Virus record (IMG/VR): IMGVR_UViG_3300032283_000551
Location: 1 to 64,000 of that record
Origin: a virus
Taxonomy: Duplodnaviria; Caudoviricetes
Length of the DNA stretch: 64,000 nt
Strand: one strand, 5' to 3'
Shown: one piece after another, positions 49,862 to 63,763 of the stretch
Layout: every line of letters starts with the position of its first letter
How positions within the stretch are numbered: the first letter of the stretch is position 1
Notes under the pieces: generated by a model
Seen by the model: only the letters and a program-made list of their open reading frames with translations
The model's database searches: none
Told to the model about the DNA's origin: nothing
Translations under genes and position numbers: made by a program

Positions 49862-51574
49862 ATGTCAATAGTATTTTCAAAACTTAGATGGAAGAATTTT
49901 CTTTCAACAGGTAATCAGTATACTGAAATTGATTTATCCACTAGTGGAACAACTCTTATCGTTGGCCAAAATGGTGCTGGTAAATCAACCTGTCTTGATG
50001 CATTAACTTTTGCATTATTTGGTAAGCCATTTCGTAATATTAATAAGCCACAACTTATTAATTCAATTACAAAAAAGGATATGATTGTTGAGATTGAATT
50101 CAATATAGGTTCAAACTCATACAAGGTAATTCGAGGTGTCAAACCAACTGTATTTGAAGTATATTGCAATAATACACTTCTAAATCAGTCTGCTGAAATG
50201 CGTGATTATCAAGAAATACTTGAGAAACAAATTCTTCGTATTAACTACAAGTCTTTTTGTCAAGTAGTTATTCTTGGTAGTGCTTCATTTGTTCCATTTA
50301 TGCAATTGCCAGCTGGTCAGCGCAGAGGAATTATTGAAGACCTTTTGGATCTTCAAGTATTCACTACCATGAATACTCTACTAAAAGAAAAGATTCAAAC
50401 AAATAACGATGATATATTACAGAATAGTAATGACCAAAAGTTAGTCAAAGAAAAAATAAAGATGCTCAAAGGGCATCTACAAGATCTTCAGAATCGAAAT
50501 GAGGAATTTGTAAAAAGAAAACAAGAACAACTAACTTCGATTGAACATAGTATACTTTCATCATACAATCAACAAACTAAATTTATTGAGGAAGCTGGAT
50601 TATCATTTTCTTATGCTATTGATGAAAAAACTAAGCTTTTTAAGAAGCTAAATCAATATGAACTACTTCTTATTCAAATGAGAGGTAAAATAGAAATTAT
50701 ATCAAAGGAGATTAAGTTTTTTAATAACTCAGATAATTGTCCGACATGTACACAACAAATTGACAAAACTTTTAGTTGTGATATAGTATCCACAAAGGAA
50801 CAAGAAATATCAGAACTGAATGAAGGTATTTCAAAGTTATTAACTATTAAAGAATCTGTTGGAGAAAAATATAATAAAGTTTTATCTGATGAAGCAGAAT
50901 ATAAGAGATTAATGAATGAAGCTTCAAATGAAAAACTAAGTATTAAAATTTTTACTCAACAAAAAGAACAAATAATCAATGAAATCAACAGTGTTGTTTC
51001 GGAGGTGAAAGAAACATCCGACTATAAAATTTCAGATTTGGAAGCAGAACTGACATCTTTGAGTGAAAAGTATAATGAACTTCAAGACGATAAGTTGACT
51101 CTAGGTGCTGCGTCTGTAATGCTTAAGGATGGTGGCATTAAGACCAAAATCATTAATCAATACATACCGATTATCAATAAGCTAATTAATAAGTACTTAT
51201 CTGAATTTGATCTGTTCGTTGAATTTGAACTTGATGAACAATTTAATGAAAAGATCAAGTCTAGATATAGAGATGAATTTAGTTATTCATCATTTAGTGA
51301 AGGTGAAAAGCAAAAGATTGATCTCGCTATTCTTTTTACATGGAGAGCAGTTGCCAAACTTCGTAATTCATTGAATACTAACTTACTTATTCTTGATGAA
51401 ATATTTGACTCGAGTCTTGATGGTAATGCCGCTGACGATCTTTTAAAGATTCTTCAGAATATAAGTCAGGATTCAAATATCTTTATTATTTCTCATAGAG
51501 AAAATCTCCATGACAAATTTGAGAATGTTATTAAATTTATAAAACATAAAAACTTTTCAAGGATTTCAGAATGA
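49862..51574 (+). CDS. gp46: Recombination ATPase subunit gp46 (Rad50/SbcC-like)
   Basis: WKNFLSTGN, G.NGAGKST, CPTC zinc hook, FSEGEK..IDL, LILDE.FDSSLD. Confidence 0.95.
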   Translation: MSIVFSKLRWKNFLSTGNQYTEIDLSTSGTTLIVGQNGAGKSTCLDALTFALFGKPFRNINKPQLINSITKKDMIVEIEFNIGSNSYKVIRGVKPTVFEVYCNNTLLNQSAEMRDYQEILEKQILRINYKSFCQVVILGSASFVPFMQLPAGQRRGIIEDLLDLQVFTTMNTLLKEKIQTNNDDILQNSNDQKLVKEKIKMLKGHLQDLQNRNEEFVKRKQEQLTSIEHSILSSYNQQTKFIEEAGLSFSYAIDEKTKLFKKLNQYELLLIQMRGKIEIISKEIKFFNNSDNCPTCTQQIDKTFSCDIVSTKEQEISELNEGISKLLTIKESVGEKYNKVLSDEAEYKRLMNEASNEKLSIKIFTQQKEQIINEINSVVSEVKETSDYKISDLEAELTSLSEKYNELQDDKLTLGAASVMLKDGGIKTKIINQYIPIINKLINKYLSEFDLFVEFELDEQFNEKIKSRYRDEFSYSSFSEGEKQKIDLAILFTWRAVAKLRNSLNTNLLILDEIFDSSLDGNAADDLLKILQNISQDSNIFIISHRENLHDKFENVIKFIKHKNFSRISE

Positions 51575-52047
51575 AATTAGTTGATTATAAAGATCCTGTT
51601 TTAAAAGAAGTTTCAGAAAAGTTCGACTTTTCTAATCCACCTTTTGAACCTATTGAGTTTGCACAAGAACTTGTAAAATTTATGTATGATAACAATGGTA
51701 TATGTGTAAGTGCACCACAAGTTGGTATACCATATAGGATATTTGCTATGCGTGGACTACCTGAGAACTTTGTTTGTTATAATCCAAAGATTGTAATGCC
51801 AGGCGAAGAAGAAATTCGTATGGAAGAAATATCGTTGACATATCCGGGATTATGTGTTAAAATAAAAAGGCCAAGGCATTGCAAAGTTCGTTTTGCTACG
51901 CCCAATGGTGAAATTAGAACGGAAACATATACGGGTATGACCGCTCGTGCATTTTTTCATTGTATGGATTTCCTTGACGGTGAAGTTTTCTATACAAAAG
52001 CAAATCCAATCCACCGTCAACAAGCTTTTAAGAAATGGAAACGATGA
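51571..52047 (+). CDS. Peptide deformylase homolog with degenerate catalytic motifs (pseudo-PDF)
   Basis: PDF layout is clear, but GxGxAAxQ reads GICVSAPQ, EGCLS reads EISLT and QHExDH reads FHCMDF. Confidence 0.85.
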   Translation: MKLVDYKDPVLKEVSEKFDFSNPPFEPIEFAQELVKFMYDNNGICVSAPQVGIPYRIFAMRGLPENFVCYNPKIVMPGEEEIRMEEISLTYPGLCVKIKRPRHCKVRFATPNGEIRTETYTGMTARAFFHCMDFLDGEVFYTKANPIHRQQAFKKWKR

Positions 52048-52583
52048 ATATTTTCTATCTGTCTACCGATGCACGCCAAGCGGCTCAATGGATGGTTGAT
52101 AAACATGTTGTTAAAATGATTTTGGAATCGGCACAATTGCTGTCCACCGCACATCGTGTATTGGATGGTATTGAATCGGTTGGTAAATCACCAACTGGTC
52201 GTAAACAAAAGACCTGGACTCTTGGTGATGCTCGTGACTCTGTACTATATAAAGCTACCCATATTAATCACCCGTCTGCAATCTGGACTCGCAAGTCGGT
52301 TGAAAACTATAACTGGCTAGTAGATCATTTTTATGCACTTGGTGACGAATATACATATCGTTATGGTAAGACTCATAAATCTTTTACCGGTGATTTGGCT
52401 TATATGCTTCAGTCGCCGCCAAAGAACCTGACCGAATATGATATGACAGTTATGCCATCTGCAATGGCCGATGAATTTGTTGTGGATGAAGATCCTATTA
52501 TTAATTACCGTAATTACTACAAGATCGGGAAAGCAAGAATGCATTCCTGGAAAAACCGTCAACCACCTGAATGGATTATCTAA
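52044..52583 (+). CDS. Pyrimidine-dimer DNA glycosylase (DenV/endonuclease V-like family)
   Basis: MNIFYL..D...AAQ...DKHVVKMILESAQLLSTAH; HINHPS.IW; EY..RYGK.H. Confidence 0.75.
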   Translation: MNIFYLSTDARQAAQWMVDKHVVKMILESAQLLSTAHRVLDGIESVGKSPTGRKQKTWTLGDARDSVLYKATHINHPSAIWTRKSVENYNWLVDHFYALGDEYTYRYGKTHKSFTGDLAYMLQSPPKNLTEYDMTVMPSAMADEFVVDEDPIINYRNYYKIGKARMHSWKNRQPPEWII

Positions 52584-52951: not shown

Positions 52952-52973
52952 ATAACATTTGGGAGATAACCTA

Positions 52974-53282
52974 ATGACAATAGAAGTACGGGATACCTCC
53001 CAAGACTATGATGATATGGTTTCCTATAAAGCCAAAGAAAATATTCGGACTGATTTGTCTGTATTCTTTGGTGAGGAAACCGATCAAAAGCCAATTGTTC
53101 CACCCAAGAAAATTGATCCAGATTTTCCTGAACAATGGCAATCTTTATTTGTAAATTTTAGATCACATGATGATTTTGTCAAGTTCATGAAATTGATTGA
53201 TGAAGTCCCATCACCTAAAACTAAAGATCTTATTTTTAAAGCAAATAAAGATAATGGTATTTTGAATTTTTTTGGAGATTAA
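52974..53282 (+). CDS. Small glycosyltransferase-associated protein (paralog 1)
   Basis: V.F....D...F..LI.....KT motif shared with the next ORF. Confidence 0.55.
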   Translation: MTIEVRDTSQDYDDMVSYKAKENIRTDLSVFFGEETDQKPIVPPKKIDPDFPEQWQSLFVNFRSHDDFVKFMKLIDEVPSPKTKDLIFKANKDNGILNFFGD

Positions 53283-53283
53283 A

Positions 53284-53547
53284 ATGAATCTACATAAAAC
53301 GATCGAAGATTTGGAAACGGATTGGCGAAATCCGTATGCACAATGGTATGCAGCAGGTATGCCAGCATTTGTTACTAAAAATCTTGAGCCGTGGAAACAA
53401 ATTTCAATTAAATTTCCTACCATGGAAGATCGTAAGAAATTTGCTGAAATCACCGGTTATTCTTTGACAGAAAAGACAAATGTTATTTGGTATCCCGATA
53501 AGGGCCGTGAGCGAAACAATATGAATAGAGTTATTGAAGATGAGTAA
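53284..53547 (+). CDS. Small glycosyltransferase-associated protein (paralog 2)
   Basis: W..GMPAF....LEPW..I.I.F....D...FA...G...TEKT..IWYP, a motif I recall as adjacent or fused to GREB1/TET-associated glycosyltransferases. Confidence 0.6.
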   Translation: MNLHKTIEDLETDWRNPYAQWYAAGMPAFVTKNLEPWKQISIKFPTMEDRKKFAEITGYSLTEKTNVIWYPDKGRERNNMNRVIEDE

Positions 53548-54478
53548 AGCAAGCCGTTATCCGATTTACATTATCAGTAAAGGTCGATGGGATTCTAGAT
53601 ATACTAGTAAAGCCCTAGAGCGTATGGGTGTTCCATATTATATTGCGGTTGAACCTCAAGAATATGATAATTATGCCGCTGTAATTGATCCAAAGAAAGT
53701 ACTTACTTTACCTTTCAGTAATCATGGTAAAGGTTCAGGCCCTGCCCGTAACTGGTGCTGGGAACACTCACAAGCAAATGGATTTAAGCGTCACTGGCTT
53801 ATGGATGATAATATCTATGAGTTTTGGCGCTTTCACCAGAATAAGCGTTATCGTGTGGAGAAAGGTTCTGGTATCTTTAGAGCAACCGAAGATTTTGTGG
53901 ATCGGTATGAAAATATTGCCCTAGCAGGTCTCCAATATAAGTTTTTCTGTGTGGATGATTATCCATACCCACCGTATATTCTTAACACTCGTATCATGTC
54001 ATGTTTCTTAATTGACAATGATTGTCCACATAAGTGGCGTGGTCGCTATAATGAAGACGTTGATTTGTCCATCCGTGTTCTCAAGGAAGGCCTTTGCACC
54101 ATGTTATTCTATGCTTTCCTTTGTGGTAAAGCAAGAACTGGTACTGTTAAGGGTGGTAATACATCGGAAGTTTATAATAACTATGCTGAAGATGCTTCAT
54201 TAAAGAAGTCACAAATGCTTGTTGAGATGCATCCAGATGTAGTTACTCTTGACCAGCGCTACGGTCGAGTGCATCATCATGTCGACCTTAATGCTATTAT
54301 TAATAAGAATGGTCAACCTGCTAGAGATAATCGACCAATCCTGAAAAAAGATGTTGACATTTTCAACAAAGTGGATAATTATGGTATGAGACTTATTCGT
54401 GAATGGGACACACCTGAAGCGTATGAAGATCTGGAATATTCCAGTGATGTATATCCACAAGGACGGAAAAATTATTAA
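53540..54478 (+). CDS. GT-A glycosyltransferase of GREB1-like / TET-associated (TAGT) type
   Basis: YPIYIISKGR, VEPQEYD.Y, G.GPARNW.W.H, HW.MDDNI, WRGRYNED.DLS.R.LK.G.CT, T...KGGNT. Confidence 0.8.
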   Translation: MSKASRYPIYIISKGRWDSRYTSKALERMGVPYYIAVEPQEYDNYAAVIDPKKVLTLPFSNHGKGSGPARNWCWEHSQANGFKRHWLMDDNIYEFWRFHQNKRYRVEKGSGIFRATEDFVDRYENIALAGLQYKFFCVDDYPYPPYILNTRIMSCFLIDNDCPHKWRGRYNEDVDLSIRVLKEGLCTMLFYAFLCGKARTGTVKGGNTSEVYNNYAEDASLKKSQMLVEMHPDVVTLDQRYGRVHHHVDLNAIINKNGQPARDNRPILKKDVDIFNKVDNYGMRLIREWDTPEAYEDLEYSSDVYPQGRKNY

Positions 54479-60088: not shown

Positions 60089-60439
60089 ATGTTTAAGTGG
60101 TTATTTAAGCCTAAAGAAGTGAAAATTATTATACGCGATAGAGAACTTCAAAGACTAACAGATCTTCTATTCCCACCTCTCGAGCGAATTGAACGTGACG
60201 GTGATCTTTACCAGGTGGATTATTCAGTCGATATGAACCTGGATTCAGCACTTCAAGATCTTAAGGATGGTTCAAACGACAAAACCACCCAAGAGACCAT
60301 CTCAAGGGTGTTGGATCGACTGATTGAAGCTAGAAAAATACTAAATGCTTATCCGGTGTTAGATGAGAATACCAAGTTTCTCATCGTGGATAATCTACCT
60401 AACGAAAAAGAAAGAGAGATTAATCCTTCTCGGGACTAA
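60089..60439 (+). CDS. Hypothetical protein
   Basis: ATG at 60089 after AGGA; 116 aa; converges with the minus-strand island. Confidence 0.55.
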   Translation: MFKWLFKPKEVKIIIRDRELQRLTDLLFPPLERIERDGDLYQVDYSVDMNLDSALQDLKDGSNDKTTQETISRVLDRLIEARKILNAYPVLDENTKFLIVDNLPNEKEREINPSRD

Positions 60440-60557
60440 CCTTCTCTTTACTTCGCTTATAAATCTTTTTAGACTCGACGACTCGTTTTCTGAACAAAGG
60501 TGTGTGCAGAGCCCGAGCAATTGGATTCCGCTTTTTGGGAACCGGGCGCTTTTGCAT
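60420..60557 (-). CDS. ArfA-like small basic protein (45 aa)
   Basis: AAGGAG RBS before ATG at 60557; MQKRPVPKKRNPIARALHTPLFRKRVVESKKIYKRSKEKVSPEKD aligns with the E. coli ArfA core [23 protein letters not shown].RK. Confidence 0.55.
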   Translation of the reverse strand: MQKRPVPKKRNPIARALHTPLFRKRVVESKKIYKRSKEKVSPEKD

Positions 60558-62439: not shown

Positions 62440-62514
62440 TGGTTAGTAGCTCAATGGTAGAGCAGGTGACTGTTAATCACCCGGTTACAGGTTCGAGTCC
62501 TGTCTAGCCAGCCA
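62440..62514 (+). tRNA. tRNA-Asn(GUU)
   Basis: GGTGA-CT GTT AA-TCACC, G73, CCA. Confidence 0.93.
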
Positions 62515-62518
62515 GGTC

Positions 62519-62637
62519 GCACAAAAACTGTTCCTATCCGGTTTTGTGCATTTTGTAGATAGGATACGCTCTTACTGTCTGGGGGTAAGAGAAGAGATAA
62601 ACTTGCTATTGAAATCAATGGTGGGTTAGCCCAGACC
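62519..62637 (+). ncRNA. Candidate double-pseudoknot ncRNA between tRNA-Asn and tRNA-Ile
   Basis: Stem GCACAAAA/TTTTGTGC with loop TCCTATC pairing with GATAGGA; stem CTCTTAC/GTAAGAG with loop GTCTGGG pairing with CCCAGAC. Confidence 0.55.
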
Positions 62638-62643
62638 AAATTT

Positions 62644-62719
62644 GCTTCCTTAGCTCAGCTGGTAGAGCATTCGGTTGATAACCGAAAGGTCGATGGGTCG
62701 GGACCATCAGGAAGCACCA
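62644..62719 (+). tRNA. tRNA-Ile(GAU) with non-canonical T-loop
   Basis: TTCGG-TT GAT AA-CCGAA; T-loop GTCGGGA; A73, CCA. Confidence 0.88.
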
Positions 62720-62724
62720 AGTTT

Positions 62725-62799
62725 GCCGGATTAGCACAGCGGTAGTGCAATCGCCTTGTAAGCGATAGGTCGGGAGTTCAATCCTCTCATCCGGCACCA
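62725..62799 (+). tRNA. tRNA-Thr(UGU)
   Basis: ATCGC-CT TGT AA-GCGAT, CCA. Confidence 0.93.
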
Positions 62800-62805
62800 T
62801 ATTTT

Positions 62806-62895
62806 GGACGTGACATCGGGTGATGACAAGGGCCTTATATTCCCTTTGCAGCTGATTACTGCTTGGATAGGATTCGAATTCCTACACGTCTACCA
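62806..62895 (+). tRNA. Atypical tRNA-like RNA, probable UAU anticodon, tiny D-arm, long variable arm
   Basis: GGACGTG/CACGTCT-A-CCA acceptor; TAGGA-TTCGAAT-TCCTA T-arm; CATC-GGGT-GATG; AAGGG-CCTTATATT-CCCTT; GCAG-CTGATTA-CTGC. Confidence 0.65.
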
Positions 62896-62898
62896 AAC

Positions 62899-62995
62899 TC
62901 AAAGACTACCAGGATTAAATGGGCTCTCCTGGTTCAAGATGACTGCTAGTAAAACTGATAACCCCACCCATGGTTTGCAGGGCTCTGGTCTTTGA
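62899..62995 (+). ncRNA. Candidate structured ncRNA (closed multibranch with loop-loop pairing)
   Basis: 10-bp closing stem TCAAAGACTA/TGGTCTTTGA; CCAGGA/TCCTGG hairpin whose loop ATGGG complements CCCAT in a second loop. Confidence 0.5.
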
Positions 62996-63003
62996 TACTT
63001 TTT

Positions 63004-63077
63004 GCGGGATTAGTATAATGGTATTATCACAGCCTTCCAAGCTGAGGACAGGGGTTCGATTCCCCTATCCCGCTCCA
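63004..63077 (+). tRNA. tRNA-Gly(UCC)
   Basis: CAGC-CT TCC AA-GCTG, U73, CCA. Confidence 0.93.
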
Positions 63078-63080
63078 TTA

Positions 63081-63211
63081 TTAAGTGTTAGACATGCGTA
63101 ATGACCTACGGCTGGTCATCCCGGGAAACTGGGTTGCATCTTTGATTTGGGAAGAATCCGGATTCGACCCAAAATATCAATGATGTGGGTTCGAATCCCG
63201 CTAACACTTAA
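63081..63211 (+). ncRNA. 131-nt tRNA-like ncRNA with T-arm and extended terminal stem
   Basis: 10-bp TTAAGTGTTA/TAACACTTAA stem next to GTGGG-TTCGAAT-CCCGC; internal hairpins ATGACC/GGTCAT, CCCGG-GAAA-CTGGG and TTGAT..TTTGGG/CCCAAA..ATCAA. Confidence 0.65.
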
Positions 63212-63220
63212 CATTATTAT

Positions 63221-63293
63221 AGCAGAGAGGATTGGTATCCCATCTAGGCTCATAACCTAGACCACGGTTGTTCGATTCAACCCTCTGTTACCA
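63221..63293 (+). tRNA. tRNA(CAU) (Met/fMet/Ile2 undetermined) with minimal D-arm
   Basis: AGCAGAG/CTCTGTT-A-CCA; GGAT-TGGT-ATCC D-arm; TCTAGG-CT CAT AA-CCTAGA. Confidence 0.8.
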
Positions 63294-63297
63294 CTAT

Positions 63298-63366
63298 GGC
63301 GCTAGAACAGGTGTTCCGGTCGATCTCATAAGTCGACTTGTGTTGGATCGTTACCAACTAGCGCCT
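63298..63366 (+). tRNA. Atypical tRNA(CAU), minimal D-arm, ATCGTTA T-loop, no CCA
   Basis: GGCGCTA/TAGCGCC; GAAC-AGGT-GTTC; GTCGAT-CT CAT AA-GTCGAC; GTTGG-ATCGTTA-CCAAC. Confidence 0.65.
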
Positions 63367-63374
63367 TATAAATA
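63367..63374 (+). promoter_or_regulatory. Late promoter TATAAATA upstream of the tRNA-Ser pair
   Basis: Exact consensus; further copies at 62069 and 62273. Confidence 0.6.
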
Positions 63375-63386
63375 AGTTACTAATAT

Positions 63387-63477
63387 GGATAGGTGGCCGA
63401 GTGGTTGAAGGCTCTAGTCTTGAAAACTAGCGAGGGTTAAGAGCCCTCCGTGGGTTCGAATCCCACCCTATCCTCCA
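63387..63477 (+). tRNA. tRNA-Ser(UGA)
   Basis: CTAGT-CT TGA AA-ACTAG, long variable arm, U73, CCA. Confidence 0.92.
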
Positions 63478-63485
63478 GTTTATTT

Positions 63486-63575
63486 GGAATGGTGGCCGAG
63501 TGGTTTAAGGCTGCGGTTTACTAAACCGCCGAGGGTTTATCCCCTCCGTGGGTTCGAATCCCACCTATTCCTCCA
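63486..63575 (+). tRNA. tRNA-Ser(ACU) (A34 anticodon)
   Basis: GCGGT-TT ACT AA-ACCGC; D-, V- and T-arms nearly identical to the adjacent tRNA-Ser(UGA); CCA. Confidence 0.85.
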
Positions 63576-63598
63576 GTTTTATAAAAAGGATATAAAAC

Positions 63599-63763
63599 AT
63601 GTCTGGTTACTCTATTGATGTCTTTAAAAAAGCGGCATTTAATCATGAACTAGATAATGTATTATCATCTGAAGAACTAAAACAAAAGTTAGGATCCAAC
63701 CACACTATATTGGTTTCCTATCTTAAAGAACGTGTTAAAGAGATAGATAAACAATACAGTTAA
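63599..63763 (+). CDS. Small hypothetical protein (54 aa) within the tRNA array
   Basis: AAAGGA RBS; MSGYSIDVFKKAAFNHELD...KEIDKQYS; its stop abuts tRNA-Pro. Confidence 0.55.
   Translation: MSGYSIDVFKKAAFNHELDNVLSSEELKQKLGSNHTILVSYLKERVKEIDKQYS

What the first reader, a model, noticed from the sequence alone, without database searches (positions are those of the whole stretch)
51571..52047. Intact but catalytically dead peptide deformylase (pseudo-PDF)
Seen: all three PDF motifs are altered: GICVSAPQ (second Gly to Cys), EISLT (metal-ligand Cys to Ser) and FHCMDF (catalytic Glu to Cys, second His ligand to Phe). The ORF is nevertheless full length, ATGA-coupled on both sides, and keeps a basic C-terminal helix (PIHRQQAFKKWKR). 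Knowledge: active PDFs need Cys + HExxH, and the E. coli-type C-terminal helix docks PDF at the ribosomal exit near uL22; phage PDFs described so far that I know of are active enzymes. Inference: a repurposed decoy that occupies the exit-tunnel site or binds formyl-Met N-termini and so alters N-terminal processing, protein stability or sensing by defence systems.
Basis: partly seen in the sequence, partly recalled or inferred. Interest (0 to 1): 0.75.

Follow-up and report, generated by a model that had tools for sequence, protein, structure and literature searches.

The report
Conserved catalytically dead phage deformylase
An uncultured T4-like phage carries a full-length peptide deformylase that has lost its metal-binding and catalytic residues but is conserved as tightly as active relatives, so it is a working non-enzyme, probably acting at the ribosome, not a decaying gene.

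Summary
ORF 51571-52047 (158 aa) is a full-length PDF-fold protein (Pfam E=1e-29; AF2 pLDDT 94.6; TM 0.9 to type 1B PDFs). The metal Cys is Ser, the catalytic Glu is Cys, the second metal His is Phe, and motif I Gly45 is Cys.

It is not decay. It belongs to a large uncultured T4-like phage group where the gene always sits between gp46 and a DenV-like gene. No copy in about 140 loci has a stop. About 40% of distinct copies are dead. dN/dS among dead copies (median 0.09) equals that among live ones (0.08).

Dead and live copies differ almost only at active-site columns. The basic C-terminal helix is conserved in both. Catalytic residues were lost several times independently: non-overlapping partial states, two Ser codon families, and an AU test on gp46 (p=1e-6).

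An 85%-complete dead-PDF genome and the cultured Rhizobium phage RHph_I1_18 carry no second PDF.

How it works is inferred only. Most likely it docks at the ribosome exit without catalysis (about 0.4).

I found no published description. This scan flagged the same kind of gene before on other DNA (e.g. e1-5706505).

The parts
51571..52047 (+). Intact 158-aa PDF-fold ORF lacking the metal ligands and the catalytic Glu (pseudo-PDF)
51559..51563 (+). Shine-Dalgarno-like AAGGA, 7 nt upstream of the ATG
   Evidence: read from the sequence
51571..51574 (+). ATGA start/stop overlap with the gp46 (SbcC-like) gene
51697..51720 (+). Motif I codons GICVSAPQ (E. coli Gly45 to Cys; Gln50 kept)
   Evidence: nearest relatives have Tyr at the Cys position
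51826..51840 (+). Motif II codons EISLT (Gly89 to Ile, metal ligand Cys90 to Ser, codon TCG)
51955..51972 (+). Motif III codons FHCMDF (Glu133 to Cys, His136 to Phe; His132 kept)
52006..52044 (+). Basic C-terminal helix PIHRQQAFKKWKR, homologous to E. coli PDF helix alpha3
   Evidence: AF2 helix 146-155; alignment to E. coli; H148, R149, A152, K155 and W156 are at least 96% conserved in dead copies
52044..52047 (+). ATGA overlap with the probable start of the downstream DenV-like gene (alternative ATG at 52035)
49862..51574 (+). gp46 / SbcC-like recombination nuclease subunit, conserved upstream neighbour
   Evidence: phrog_77 E=8.5e-166; synteny
52044..52583 (+). DenV-like / phrog_624 gene, conserved downstream neighbour

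Best explanation
The gene encodes a folded, expressed-looking peptide-deformylase homologue that can no longer bind the catalytic metal or activate water. Selection nevertheless keeps it, so it is a pseudoenzyme; I put that part at about 0.9. It is the orthologue, at the same place, of the active PDF that sister phages carry between gp46 and the DenV-like gene. In this phage group the catalytic residues have been lost repeatedly while the rest of the protein stayed constrained. What is kept in every dead lineage is the scaffold and the short basic C-terminal helix, which aligns with the E. coli PDF helix that docks at the ribosomal exit next to uL22. The most likely mode of action (inferred, about 0.4) is therefore non-catalytic docking at the ribosome exit site. 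There it would either compete with host PDF and Met-aminopeptidase for nascent chains or act as a passive exit-site factor for phage proteins. The former active-site pocket appears to be filled in, not used. Shown: loss of catalytic residues, retained fold, purifying selection, recurrence, absence of a second PDF. Inferred: ribosome binding and its consequence.
For: Fold and domain:
- Pfam E=1e-29.
- AF2 pLDDT 94.6, pTM 0.88, C-terminal helix 146-155.
- Foldseek TM 0.90 to type 1B PDFs.

Loss of catalysis:
- Cys90 to Ser, Glu133 to Cys, His136 to Phe.
- The query scores 78.8 bits against the TIGR00079 equivalog cut-off of 103.95. A live sister scores 133.5.

Selection:
- All 64 full-length PDF-anchored copies and all 74 copies anchored on the neighbouring gene are free of stops.
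- Median dN/dS is 0.088 for dead-dead pairs and 0.083 for live-live pairs.
- The PDF is more conserved than the adjacent gp46 and gp47 (73-81% against 55-65%).

Orthology:
- The order helicase-gp55-gp47-gp46-PDF-DenV-like holds in both live and dead lineages.

Differences confined to the active site:
- Live-only conserved columns are G43, G45, A47, N49, G89, C90, E133 and H136, plus family positions 15 and 120.
- The helix residues H148, R149, A152, K155 and W156 are conserved in both classes.

Recurrence:
- Partial states share no substitution: SHEH, CHEF, SHEY, CHQY, CHEL.
- Ser88 uses both AGY and TCN codons.
- Starred branches of the gp46 tree force at least 3 changes, and the AU test rejects one dead clade (p=1.1e-6).
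- About 31 of 150 clusters at 50% identity around the query are dead in many different ways. They still carry a basic tail with median net charge +6.

No back-up enzyme:
- There is a single PDF hit in an 85%-complete dead-PDF genome.
- There is a single PDF hit in the complete genome of Rhizobium phage RHph_I1_18, and that PDF is also dead.
Against:
- Ribosome docking is not shown.
- The helix ends 8 residues before the E. coli one.
- Of the six E. coli contact residues listed in PMC12690207 (L149, K150, R153, K157, K160, R163), only K157 is identical here. L149 and K160 are conservatively replaced, K150 is His, R153 is Gln and R163 is missing.
- The host and its ribosome are unknown.
- The PDF tree alone does not reject a single origin of dead forms (AU p=0.086).
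- Recombination could decouple gp46 from the PDF gene.
- Conservation of the helix in dead forms could serve another partner.
Confidence: 0.45

Rival explanations
1. The PDF fold has been reused as a binding module for a partner other than the ribosome. The partner could be a phage or host protein or a nucleic acid, with the basic tail and conserved surfaces such as the family-specific FDFxNPPxDP loop serving that contact.
For: Strong constraint extends over the whole scaffold, not only the helix. The N-terminal FDF-NPP-DP motif (residues 18-27) is specific to this phage family and absent from E. coli PDF. Only part of the E. coli ribosome contacts are kept. The gene lies in a DNA replication and repair block.
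Against: No partner is identified. The same conserved features occur in live sisters that presumably act on nascent chains. Placement after gp46 falls in the variable region between T4 core genes, so it is weak evidence for a functional link.
Confidence: 0.28
2. It is a reader or sequestering factor for formyl-Met N-termini. The substrate groove would still bind fMet peptides without cleaving them, protecting or masking N-termini.
For: Gln50, Glu88, Leu91 and most hydrophobic S1' positions (I44, L84, M123) remain conserved in the window's clade.
Against: Gly45 is replaced by Cys, Tyr, Asn, Ser or Thr. Gly89 is replaced by Ile, Thr, Val or Lys. His136 is replaced by Phe or Tyr. These put bulky side chains where the metal and formyl group sit. 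The identity of these residues varies even at 97% overall identity (Cys against Tyr). More diverged dead lineages also lose Gln50.
Confidence: 0.1
3. It is not dead. A rewired active site would give residual or different hydrolase activity, for example His130 with Cys131 and Cys45 as a new metal or thiol centre.
For: His132 is kept, and two new Cys residues flank the old site in the window's protein. Some motif-divergent type 3 PDFs of Trypanosoma are reported to be active (PMC12690207).
Against: No alternative ligand set is conserved. Position 45 is Cys, Tyr, Asn, Ser, Thr or Gly. Position 130 is His or Gln. Position 131 is Cys, Ser, Asn, Gln, Met, Thr or Ala. Position 134 is Phe, Tyr, Asn, Val or Leu. 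This variation occurs among close relatives that are all under purifying selection. The nearest relatives at 97% identity have Tyr instead of Cys45. From my own knowledge of the E. coli mutagenesis literature (Meinnel et al. 1995), changes at Cys90, His136 and Glu133 abolish activity.
Confidence: 0.07
4. It is a decaying pseudogene that happens still to be open.
For: Catalytic residues are lost.
Against: There are no stops or frameshifts in about 140 loci. dN/dS is 0.03-0.25 within dead lineages. Dead clusters diverge down to about 35% identity with the fold signature kept. The gene is translationally coupled and has a Shine-Dalgarno sequence.
Confidence: 0.02

Closest known systems
Active phage peptide deformylases: Synechococcus phage S-SSM7 PDF (PDB 3uwa/3uwb; PMC3660681) and Vibrio phage Vp16 PDF (PDB 5mtc; PMC5591237)
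   Same: Phage-encoded, single-domain type-1-like PDF fold. S-SSM7 matches at E=5.8e-13 by sequence and TM 0.82 by structure.
   Different: Those enzymes keep all three motifs and are active, but lack the C-terminal ribosome-docking helix. The window's protein is the inverse: helix kept, catalytic centre gone.
Live PDFs of sister T4-like phages (e.g. L037, L027; cultured Stenotrophomonas phage DLP_6 at 45% identity, Caulobacter phage Cr30)
   Same: 57-65% identity (45% for DLP_6). In the uncultured sisters, same gene position after gp46 and before the DenV-like gene, same length and same HRxQAxKKWKR tail.
   Different: They keep GIGLAANQ / EGCLT / QHELDH and pass the TIGR00079 equivalog cut-off (133.5 bits), whereas the window's protein does not (78.8 bits).
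Inactive or weakly active 'type 3' accessory PDFs (second PDF of Staphylococcus aureus and Streptococcus pneumoniae; archaeal and trypanosomatid forms; Margolis 2000/2001 as cited in PMC12690207)
   Same: PDF homologues with substitutions in the conserved motifs, retained in genomes although inactive in the assays used.
   Different: Those are cellular paralogues that sit beside an active PDF. Here the dead copy is the only PDF of the phage. It arose inside a phage type-1B-like lineage, repeatedly, and keeps the type-1 C-terminal helix.
E. coli PDF (Def) docking at the ribosome exit through helix alpha3 (Bingel-Erlenmeyer 2008; contacts summarised in PMC12690207)
   Same: The C-terminal helix is homologous and basic. 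It aligns from Pro148, K157 is conserved, and a hydrophobic residue sits at position 149.
   Different: The helix is 8 residues shorter and has no equivalent of R163. K150 is His and R153 is Gln. The window's protein has no catalytic centre.
Rhizobium phage RHph_I1_18 'peptide deformylase protein' (MN988519.1, EVB91_063)
   Same: A cultured T4-like phage with the gene directly after gp46. Its motifs are also dead (EISPS; QQLIEI), and it is the only PDF hit in the complete genome.
   Different: Only 29% identical, with a long N-terminal extension. It is an independent loss, and it is annotated with deformylase activity in the record.

Membership tests
Peptide deformylase (EC 3.5.1.88; Pfam PF01327, TIGR00079) | PDF fold / Pfam domain over its full length | tested here: met
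   PF01327 E=1e-29, profile positions 3-155 of 156; AF2 pLDDT 94.6; TM 0.90 to PDB PDFs
Peptide deformylase (EC 3.5.1.88; Pfam PF01327, TIGR00079) | Motif I G-phi-G-phi-A-A-x-Q | tested here: not met
   GICVSAPQ: Gly45 to Cys and Ala47 to Ser; Gln50 kept
Peptide deformylase (EC 3.5.1.88; Pfam PF01327, TIGR00079) | Motif II EGCLS with the metal-ligand Cys | tested here: not met
   EISLT: Cys90 to Ser (codon TCG) and Gly89 to Ile
Peptide deformylase (EC 3.5.1.88; Pfam PF01327, TIGR00079) | Motif III HExxH (two metal His residues and the catalytic Glu) | tested here: not met
   HCMDF: Glu133 to Cys and His136 to Phe
Peptide deformylase (EC 3.5.1.88; Pfam PF01327, TIGR00079) | Score above the NCBIfam equivalog cut-off | tested here: not met
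   TIGR00079 78.8 bits against a cut-off of 103.95; live sister L037 scores 133.5
Peptide deformylase (EC 3.5.1.88; Pfam PF01327, TIGR00079) | Deformylase activity on fMet-peptides / complementation of def | not testable with these tools
   Needs an enzyme assay or a def-conditional strain
Type 1B PDF (ribosome-docking subclass) | C-terminal alpha-helix | tested here: met
   AF2 helix 146-155, aligned with E. coli alpha3 from Pro148; best structural matches are type 1B PDFs
Type 1B PDF (ribosome-docking subclass) | E. coli ribosome-contact residues L149, K150, R153, K157, K160, R163 | tested here: inconclusive
   The window has I147, H148, Q151, K155 and R158, and nothing at the R163 position (residue list from PMC12690207). 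The host ribosome is unknown.
Type 3 (inactive or weakly active) PDFs | Substitutions in the conserved motifs | tested here: met
Type 3 (inactive or weakly active) PDFs | Common descent with the archaeal, trypanosomatid or Gram-positive type 3 clade | tested here: inconclusive
   No type 3 sequences were put in a tree. Dead copies nest among live phage PDFs of 57-65% identity at the same locus, which points to an independent origin inside the phage lineage.

The most novel reading that the evidence does not exclude
In this large group of T4-like phages the selected job of the PDF gene is not deformylation at all. It is occupancy of the ribosomal exit site through the conserved basic helix. Catalysis is an expendable extra that has been dropped many times. 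The dead forms act as dominant blockers or gatekeepers of host N-terminal processing (PDF and MetAP access). That would change the fate of nascent host or phage proteins, for example through retained fMet as a degradation or protection signal.
Probability: 0.2. Interest if true: 0.85.

Novelty: new variant of a known kind. Interest (0 to 1): 0.62.

Why it matters
Phage PDFs are among the most abundant 'auxiliary metabolic genes' in viral metagenomes. They are uniformly annotated, and counted, as active deformylases.

Here about 40% of the distinct copies in one widespread T4-like group are catalytically dead yet strongly conserved. Roughly a fifth of the neighbouring sequence clusters are dead too. 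The same holds for one cultured phage whose record claims deformylase activity.

This means the annotation is wrong for many genes. It also points to a second, non-catalytic function of the PDF scaffold.

If that function is ribosome exit-site occupancy, it would be a new way for a virus to interfere with co-translational protein maturation. It is directly testable through ribosome binding, N-terminomics and a knockout in RHph_I1_18.

The repeated, convergent replacement (Cys to Ser, His to Phe or Tyr) is also a clean natural example of how an enzyme becomes a pseudoenzyme.

Tried and rejected
- Complex prediction of the pseudo-PDF with E. coli uL22 as a stand-in gave no verdict (score 0.16, mark 0.32). 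It counts neither for nor against binding.
No reads were laid, so expression is untested.
- PADLOC gave no hit for the PDF or its small neighbours, so a defence or counter-defence link has no support.
- The AU test on the PDF tree with catalytic columns removed did not reject a single dead clade (p=0.086). The claim of several origins therefore rests on the gp46 tree, the non-overlapping partial states and the Ser codon families.
- A second, active PDF elsewhere in dead-PDF genomes was sought and not found. Most of the metagenomic records are fragments.
- Literature searches for dead, inactive or pseudoenzyme phage PDFs found no description. The library lacks most subscription journals.
- Inhibitor sponge for natural PDF inhibitors (idea from PMC12157366): rejected as unlikely, because hydroxamate inhibitors need the metal that this protein cannot bind.
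- The host could not be identified. The closest cultured gp46 relatives are cyanophages at only 46-48% identity.
Full report
**1. The observation**

The window carries an intact 158-codon ORF at 51571-52047 on the + strand.
- It matches Pfam Pep_deformylase end to end (E=1e-29) and PHROG 2890.
They are GICVSAPQ, EISLT and FHCMDF.
- In E. coli numbering the changes are Gly45 to Cys, Gly89 to Ile, the metal ligand Cys90 to Ser, the catalytic Glu133 to Cys and the metal ligand His136 to Phe. His132 and Gln50 are kept.
- The start overlaps the gp46 stop (ATGA, 51571-51574) and follows an AAGGA.
- The stop overlaps a probable ATG of the next gene at 52044. Homologues of that gene mostly align from its residue 4.
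- An AlphaFold2 model built on 73 homologues is confident (pLDDT 94.6, pTM 0.88). It ends in a helix at 146-155.
- Foldseek gives TM 0.90 to type 1B PDFs.
- Against the NCBIfam equivalog TIGR00079 the protein scores 78.8 bits, under the cut-off of 103.95. A live sister scores 133.5.

**2. The surroundings**

The window is part of a 77-kb IMG/VR virus record rated 46% complete.
- It is a T4-like myophage. UvsW-type helicase, gp55 late sigma, gp47 and gp46 lie upstream. A DenV-like/phrog_624 gene, a MazG-like pyrophosphatase and a TAGT glycosyltransferase operon lie downstream.
- The closest cultured gp46 relatives are cyanophages at only 46-48% identity. The host is therefore unknown.

**3. A large family with live and dead members**

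- A protein search returned 688 relatives. Among the best 120 (63-97% identity) most have dead motifs and about 22 have canonical ones.
- Sixty-six IMG/VR loci were fetched with the PDF as query. Every copy not cut by a contig end is an open frame of at least 159 codons.
- Taking Cys90, His132, Glu133 and His136 in that order, the live state is CHEH. Dead states include SHCF (the window's clade), SQCF, SQSF, SHNF, SQQF and SQMN. Partial states are SHEH, CHEF, SHEY, CHQY and CHEL.
- The gene order helicase-gp55-gp47-gp46-PDF-DenV-like is the same in live and dead lineages. The dead gene is therefore the orthologue of the live one, not an extra paralogue.
- For a sample not biased by the PDF itself, I fetched 79 new loci through the DenV-like gene (80 kept, one already held from the PDF search). 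Of 76 with enough upstream DNA, 74 have a full-length PDF just upstream and none has a stop. Of 53 distinct proteins, 30 are live and 23 dead.

**4. Selection**

- Pairwise Nei-Gojobori dN/dS for pairs with dS between 0.03 and 1.2 has a median of 0.088 for dead-dead pairs (33 pairs). For example, the window against L006 gives dN 0.022, dS 0.65. The median is 0.083 for live-live pairs (14 pairs).
- Pairs inside a dead clade measure evolution after inactivation, so the constraint is current.
- The PDF is also better conserved than its essential neighbours. Against the window, main-clade relatives (about 73-81% identical) show 62-65% for gp46 and 55-61% for gp47.

**5. What changed and what did not**

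I compared 41 live and 122 dead sequences column by column.
- The columns conserved only in live copies are G43, G45, A47, N49, G89, C90, E133 and H136, plus two family-specific positions (15 and 120).
- Everything else is kept in both classes. This includes Gln50, Glu88, Asp135, Gly139, the family-specific FDFxNPPxDP loop and the helix residues H148, R149, A152, K155 and W156.
- The replacements are not random. Cys90 is Ser in 96% of dead copies and His136 is Phe in 86%.
- Residues at positions 45 and 89 become larger (Cys, Tyr or Asn; Ile, Thr, Val or Lys). This pattern suggests that the empty metal site is being filled in.
- The identities vary even among near-identical proteins. The window has Cys45 where its 97%-identical relatives have Tyr. 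That speaks against a rewired catalytic centre.

**6. Repeated loss**

- The partial states share no inactivating change. SHEH has lost only Cys, CHEF only the second His, and CHQY and CHEL still have Cys. At least two losses are therefore independent on logic alone.
- Ser88 is encoded by both AGY and TCN codons, even within one tight clade: L028 has AGT and L026 has TCC. These two codon families cannot interconvert in one step while staying Ser.
- On a tree of the adjacent gp46 protein (568 columns), well-supported branches force at least three live/dead changes and the best tree needs five. Forcing all dead-PDF phages into one clade costs 154.7 log-likelihood units (AU p=1.1e-6).
- On the short PDF alignment with catalytic columns removed, the best tree also needs five changes. 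There the AU test is not significant (p=0.086). Recombination between gp46 and the PDF gene cannot be excluded.

**7. Beyond this group**

- A full HMMER scan of 1.84 billion cluster representatives found 8470 relatives.
- Among the best 150 (35-62% identity), about 115 are live and about 31 dead. The dead ones are dead in many different ways: Cys to Ser, Asp, Thr or Asn, and the HExxH residues to almost anything.
- These dead representatives keep a basic tail (median net charge +6 over about 26 residues) and mostly an AN..H(R/K)xxAx(K/R)KWKK-like pattern. Several have lost even Gln50.
- Among cultured phages, the PDFs of DLP_6, Cr30 and Phosso are live. The 'peptide deformylase protein' of Rhizobium phage RHph_I1_18 is dead (EISPS; QQLIEI). 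It lies directly after gp46 and is the only PDF hit in that complete genome.
- The most complete dead-PDF metagenomic genome (141 kb, 85%) also has only the dead copy.

**8. Mechanism**

- Shown: the protein cannot be a canonical metallo-deformylase, it folds like one, and it is under selection.
- Inferred: what it does. The one functional element outside the active site with a known role is the C-terminal helix. In E. coli this helix docks PDF between uL22 and uL32 through L149, K150, R153 and K157, and contacts 23S rRNA through K160 and R163 (PMC12690207, citing Bingel-Erlenmeyer 2008).
- The window's helix aligns with it from the conserved Pro. It keeps K157 (K155 here, 96% conserved), a hydrophobic residue at 149 and a basic residue at 160. 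It has His for K150 and Gln for R153, and it stops before R163.
- Characterised phage PDFs show the opposite pattern. S-SSM7 and Vp16 are active but lack this helix (PMC3660681, PMC5591237).
- I therefore favour non-catalytic exit-site docking, at about 0.4. The rivals are another binding partner (about 0.28), an fMet-peptide reader (about 0.1, weakened by the filled-in pocket), residual or altered catalysis (about 0.07) and decay (about 0.02).
- A complex prediction with E. coli uL22 gave no verdict. No defence-system family matched.

**9. Comparison and novelty**

- Inactive PDF paralogues ('type 3') are known in S. aureus, S. pneumoniae, archaea and trypanosomatids (PMC12690207). Phage PDFs are known too, and are described as having conserved motifs (PMC5591237).
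- I found no paper describing catalytically dead phage PDFs, within the limits of the library.
- The case is best filed as a new variant of a known kind. It is a phage-borne, sole-copy pseudo-PDF that has arisen repeatedly and keeps the type-1 helix.
- Earlier notes of this scan flagged the same kind of gene in other genomes. One follow-up (e1-5706505) reached the same conclusion about conservation. I re-tested that claim here on independent loci.

Noticed in passing
L072:1381-1959 (Rhizobium phage RHph_I1_18, MN988519.1, EVB91_063): A cultured T4-like phage's gene annotated 'peptide deformylase protein' with GO deformylase activity has dead motifs (EISPS; QQLIEI). It is the only PDF hit in the complete genome. 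It is probably misannotated and is a ready experimental system.
   Followed up: partly
L027:3417-3998 (and the ~580-bp gaps between gp46 and the PDF in L024, L028, L030, L033, L041): Several relatives with live or partly inactivated PDFs carry an extra 193-aa ORF between gp46 and the PDF. By eye it has a 2OG-Fe(II)-oxygenase-like HxD...H pattern. The window's clade lacks it, and there the PDF overlaps gp46 directly.
   Followed up: no
window 51613-51615 (residue 15) and 51928-51930 (residue 120): Two positions outside the classical motifs follow catalytic status. Residue 15 is Cys in 90% of live copies but Ser or Ala in most dead ones. Residue 120 is Phe in all live copies and Tyr in half of the dead ones. 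These may be family-specific active-site neighbours.
   Followed up: no
window 52035-52583: The downstream gene is only a borderline Pyr_excise (DenV) match (23.2 bits against a cut-off of 23) but a strong phrog_624 'DNA binding protein' match. Its start is more likely 52044 than 52035. It is the most constant neighbour of the PDF.
   Followed up: partly
window 52959-54478: Two small overlapping ORFs without any family (107 and 91 aa) precede a TET-associated glycosyltransferase (PF20691, E=1.5e-49). The trio recurs in relatives (L002-L005, L023, L032). This suggests a DNA hypermodification module, which earlier scan notes also flagged.
   Followed up: no
window 60420-60557 and 62500-63600: Earlier notes of this scan report an ArfA-like peptide and unusual tRNA-like RNAs downstream of the PDF. 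I did not check them. If real, the phage carries several translation-related genes.
   Followed up: no
L135 and L150 (1-3000): Two relatives have the DenV-like gene without gp46 or a PDF within 3 kb upstream. These are the only informative loci of 76 where the PDF is not next to it, through rearrangement or loss.
   Followed up: no
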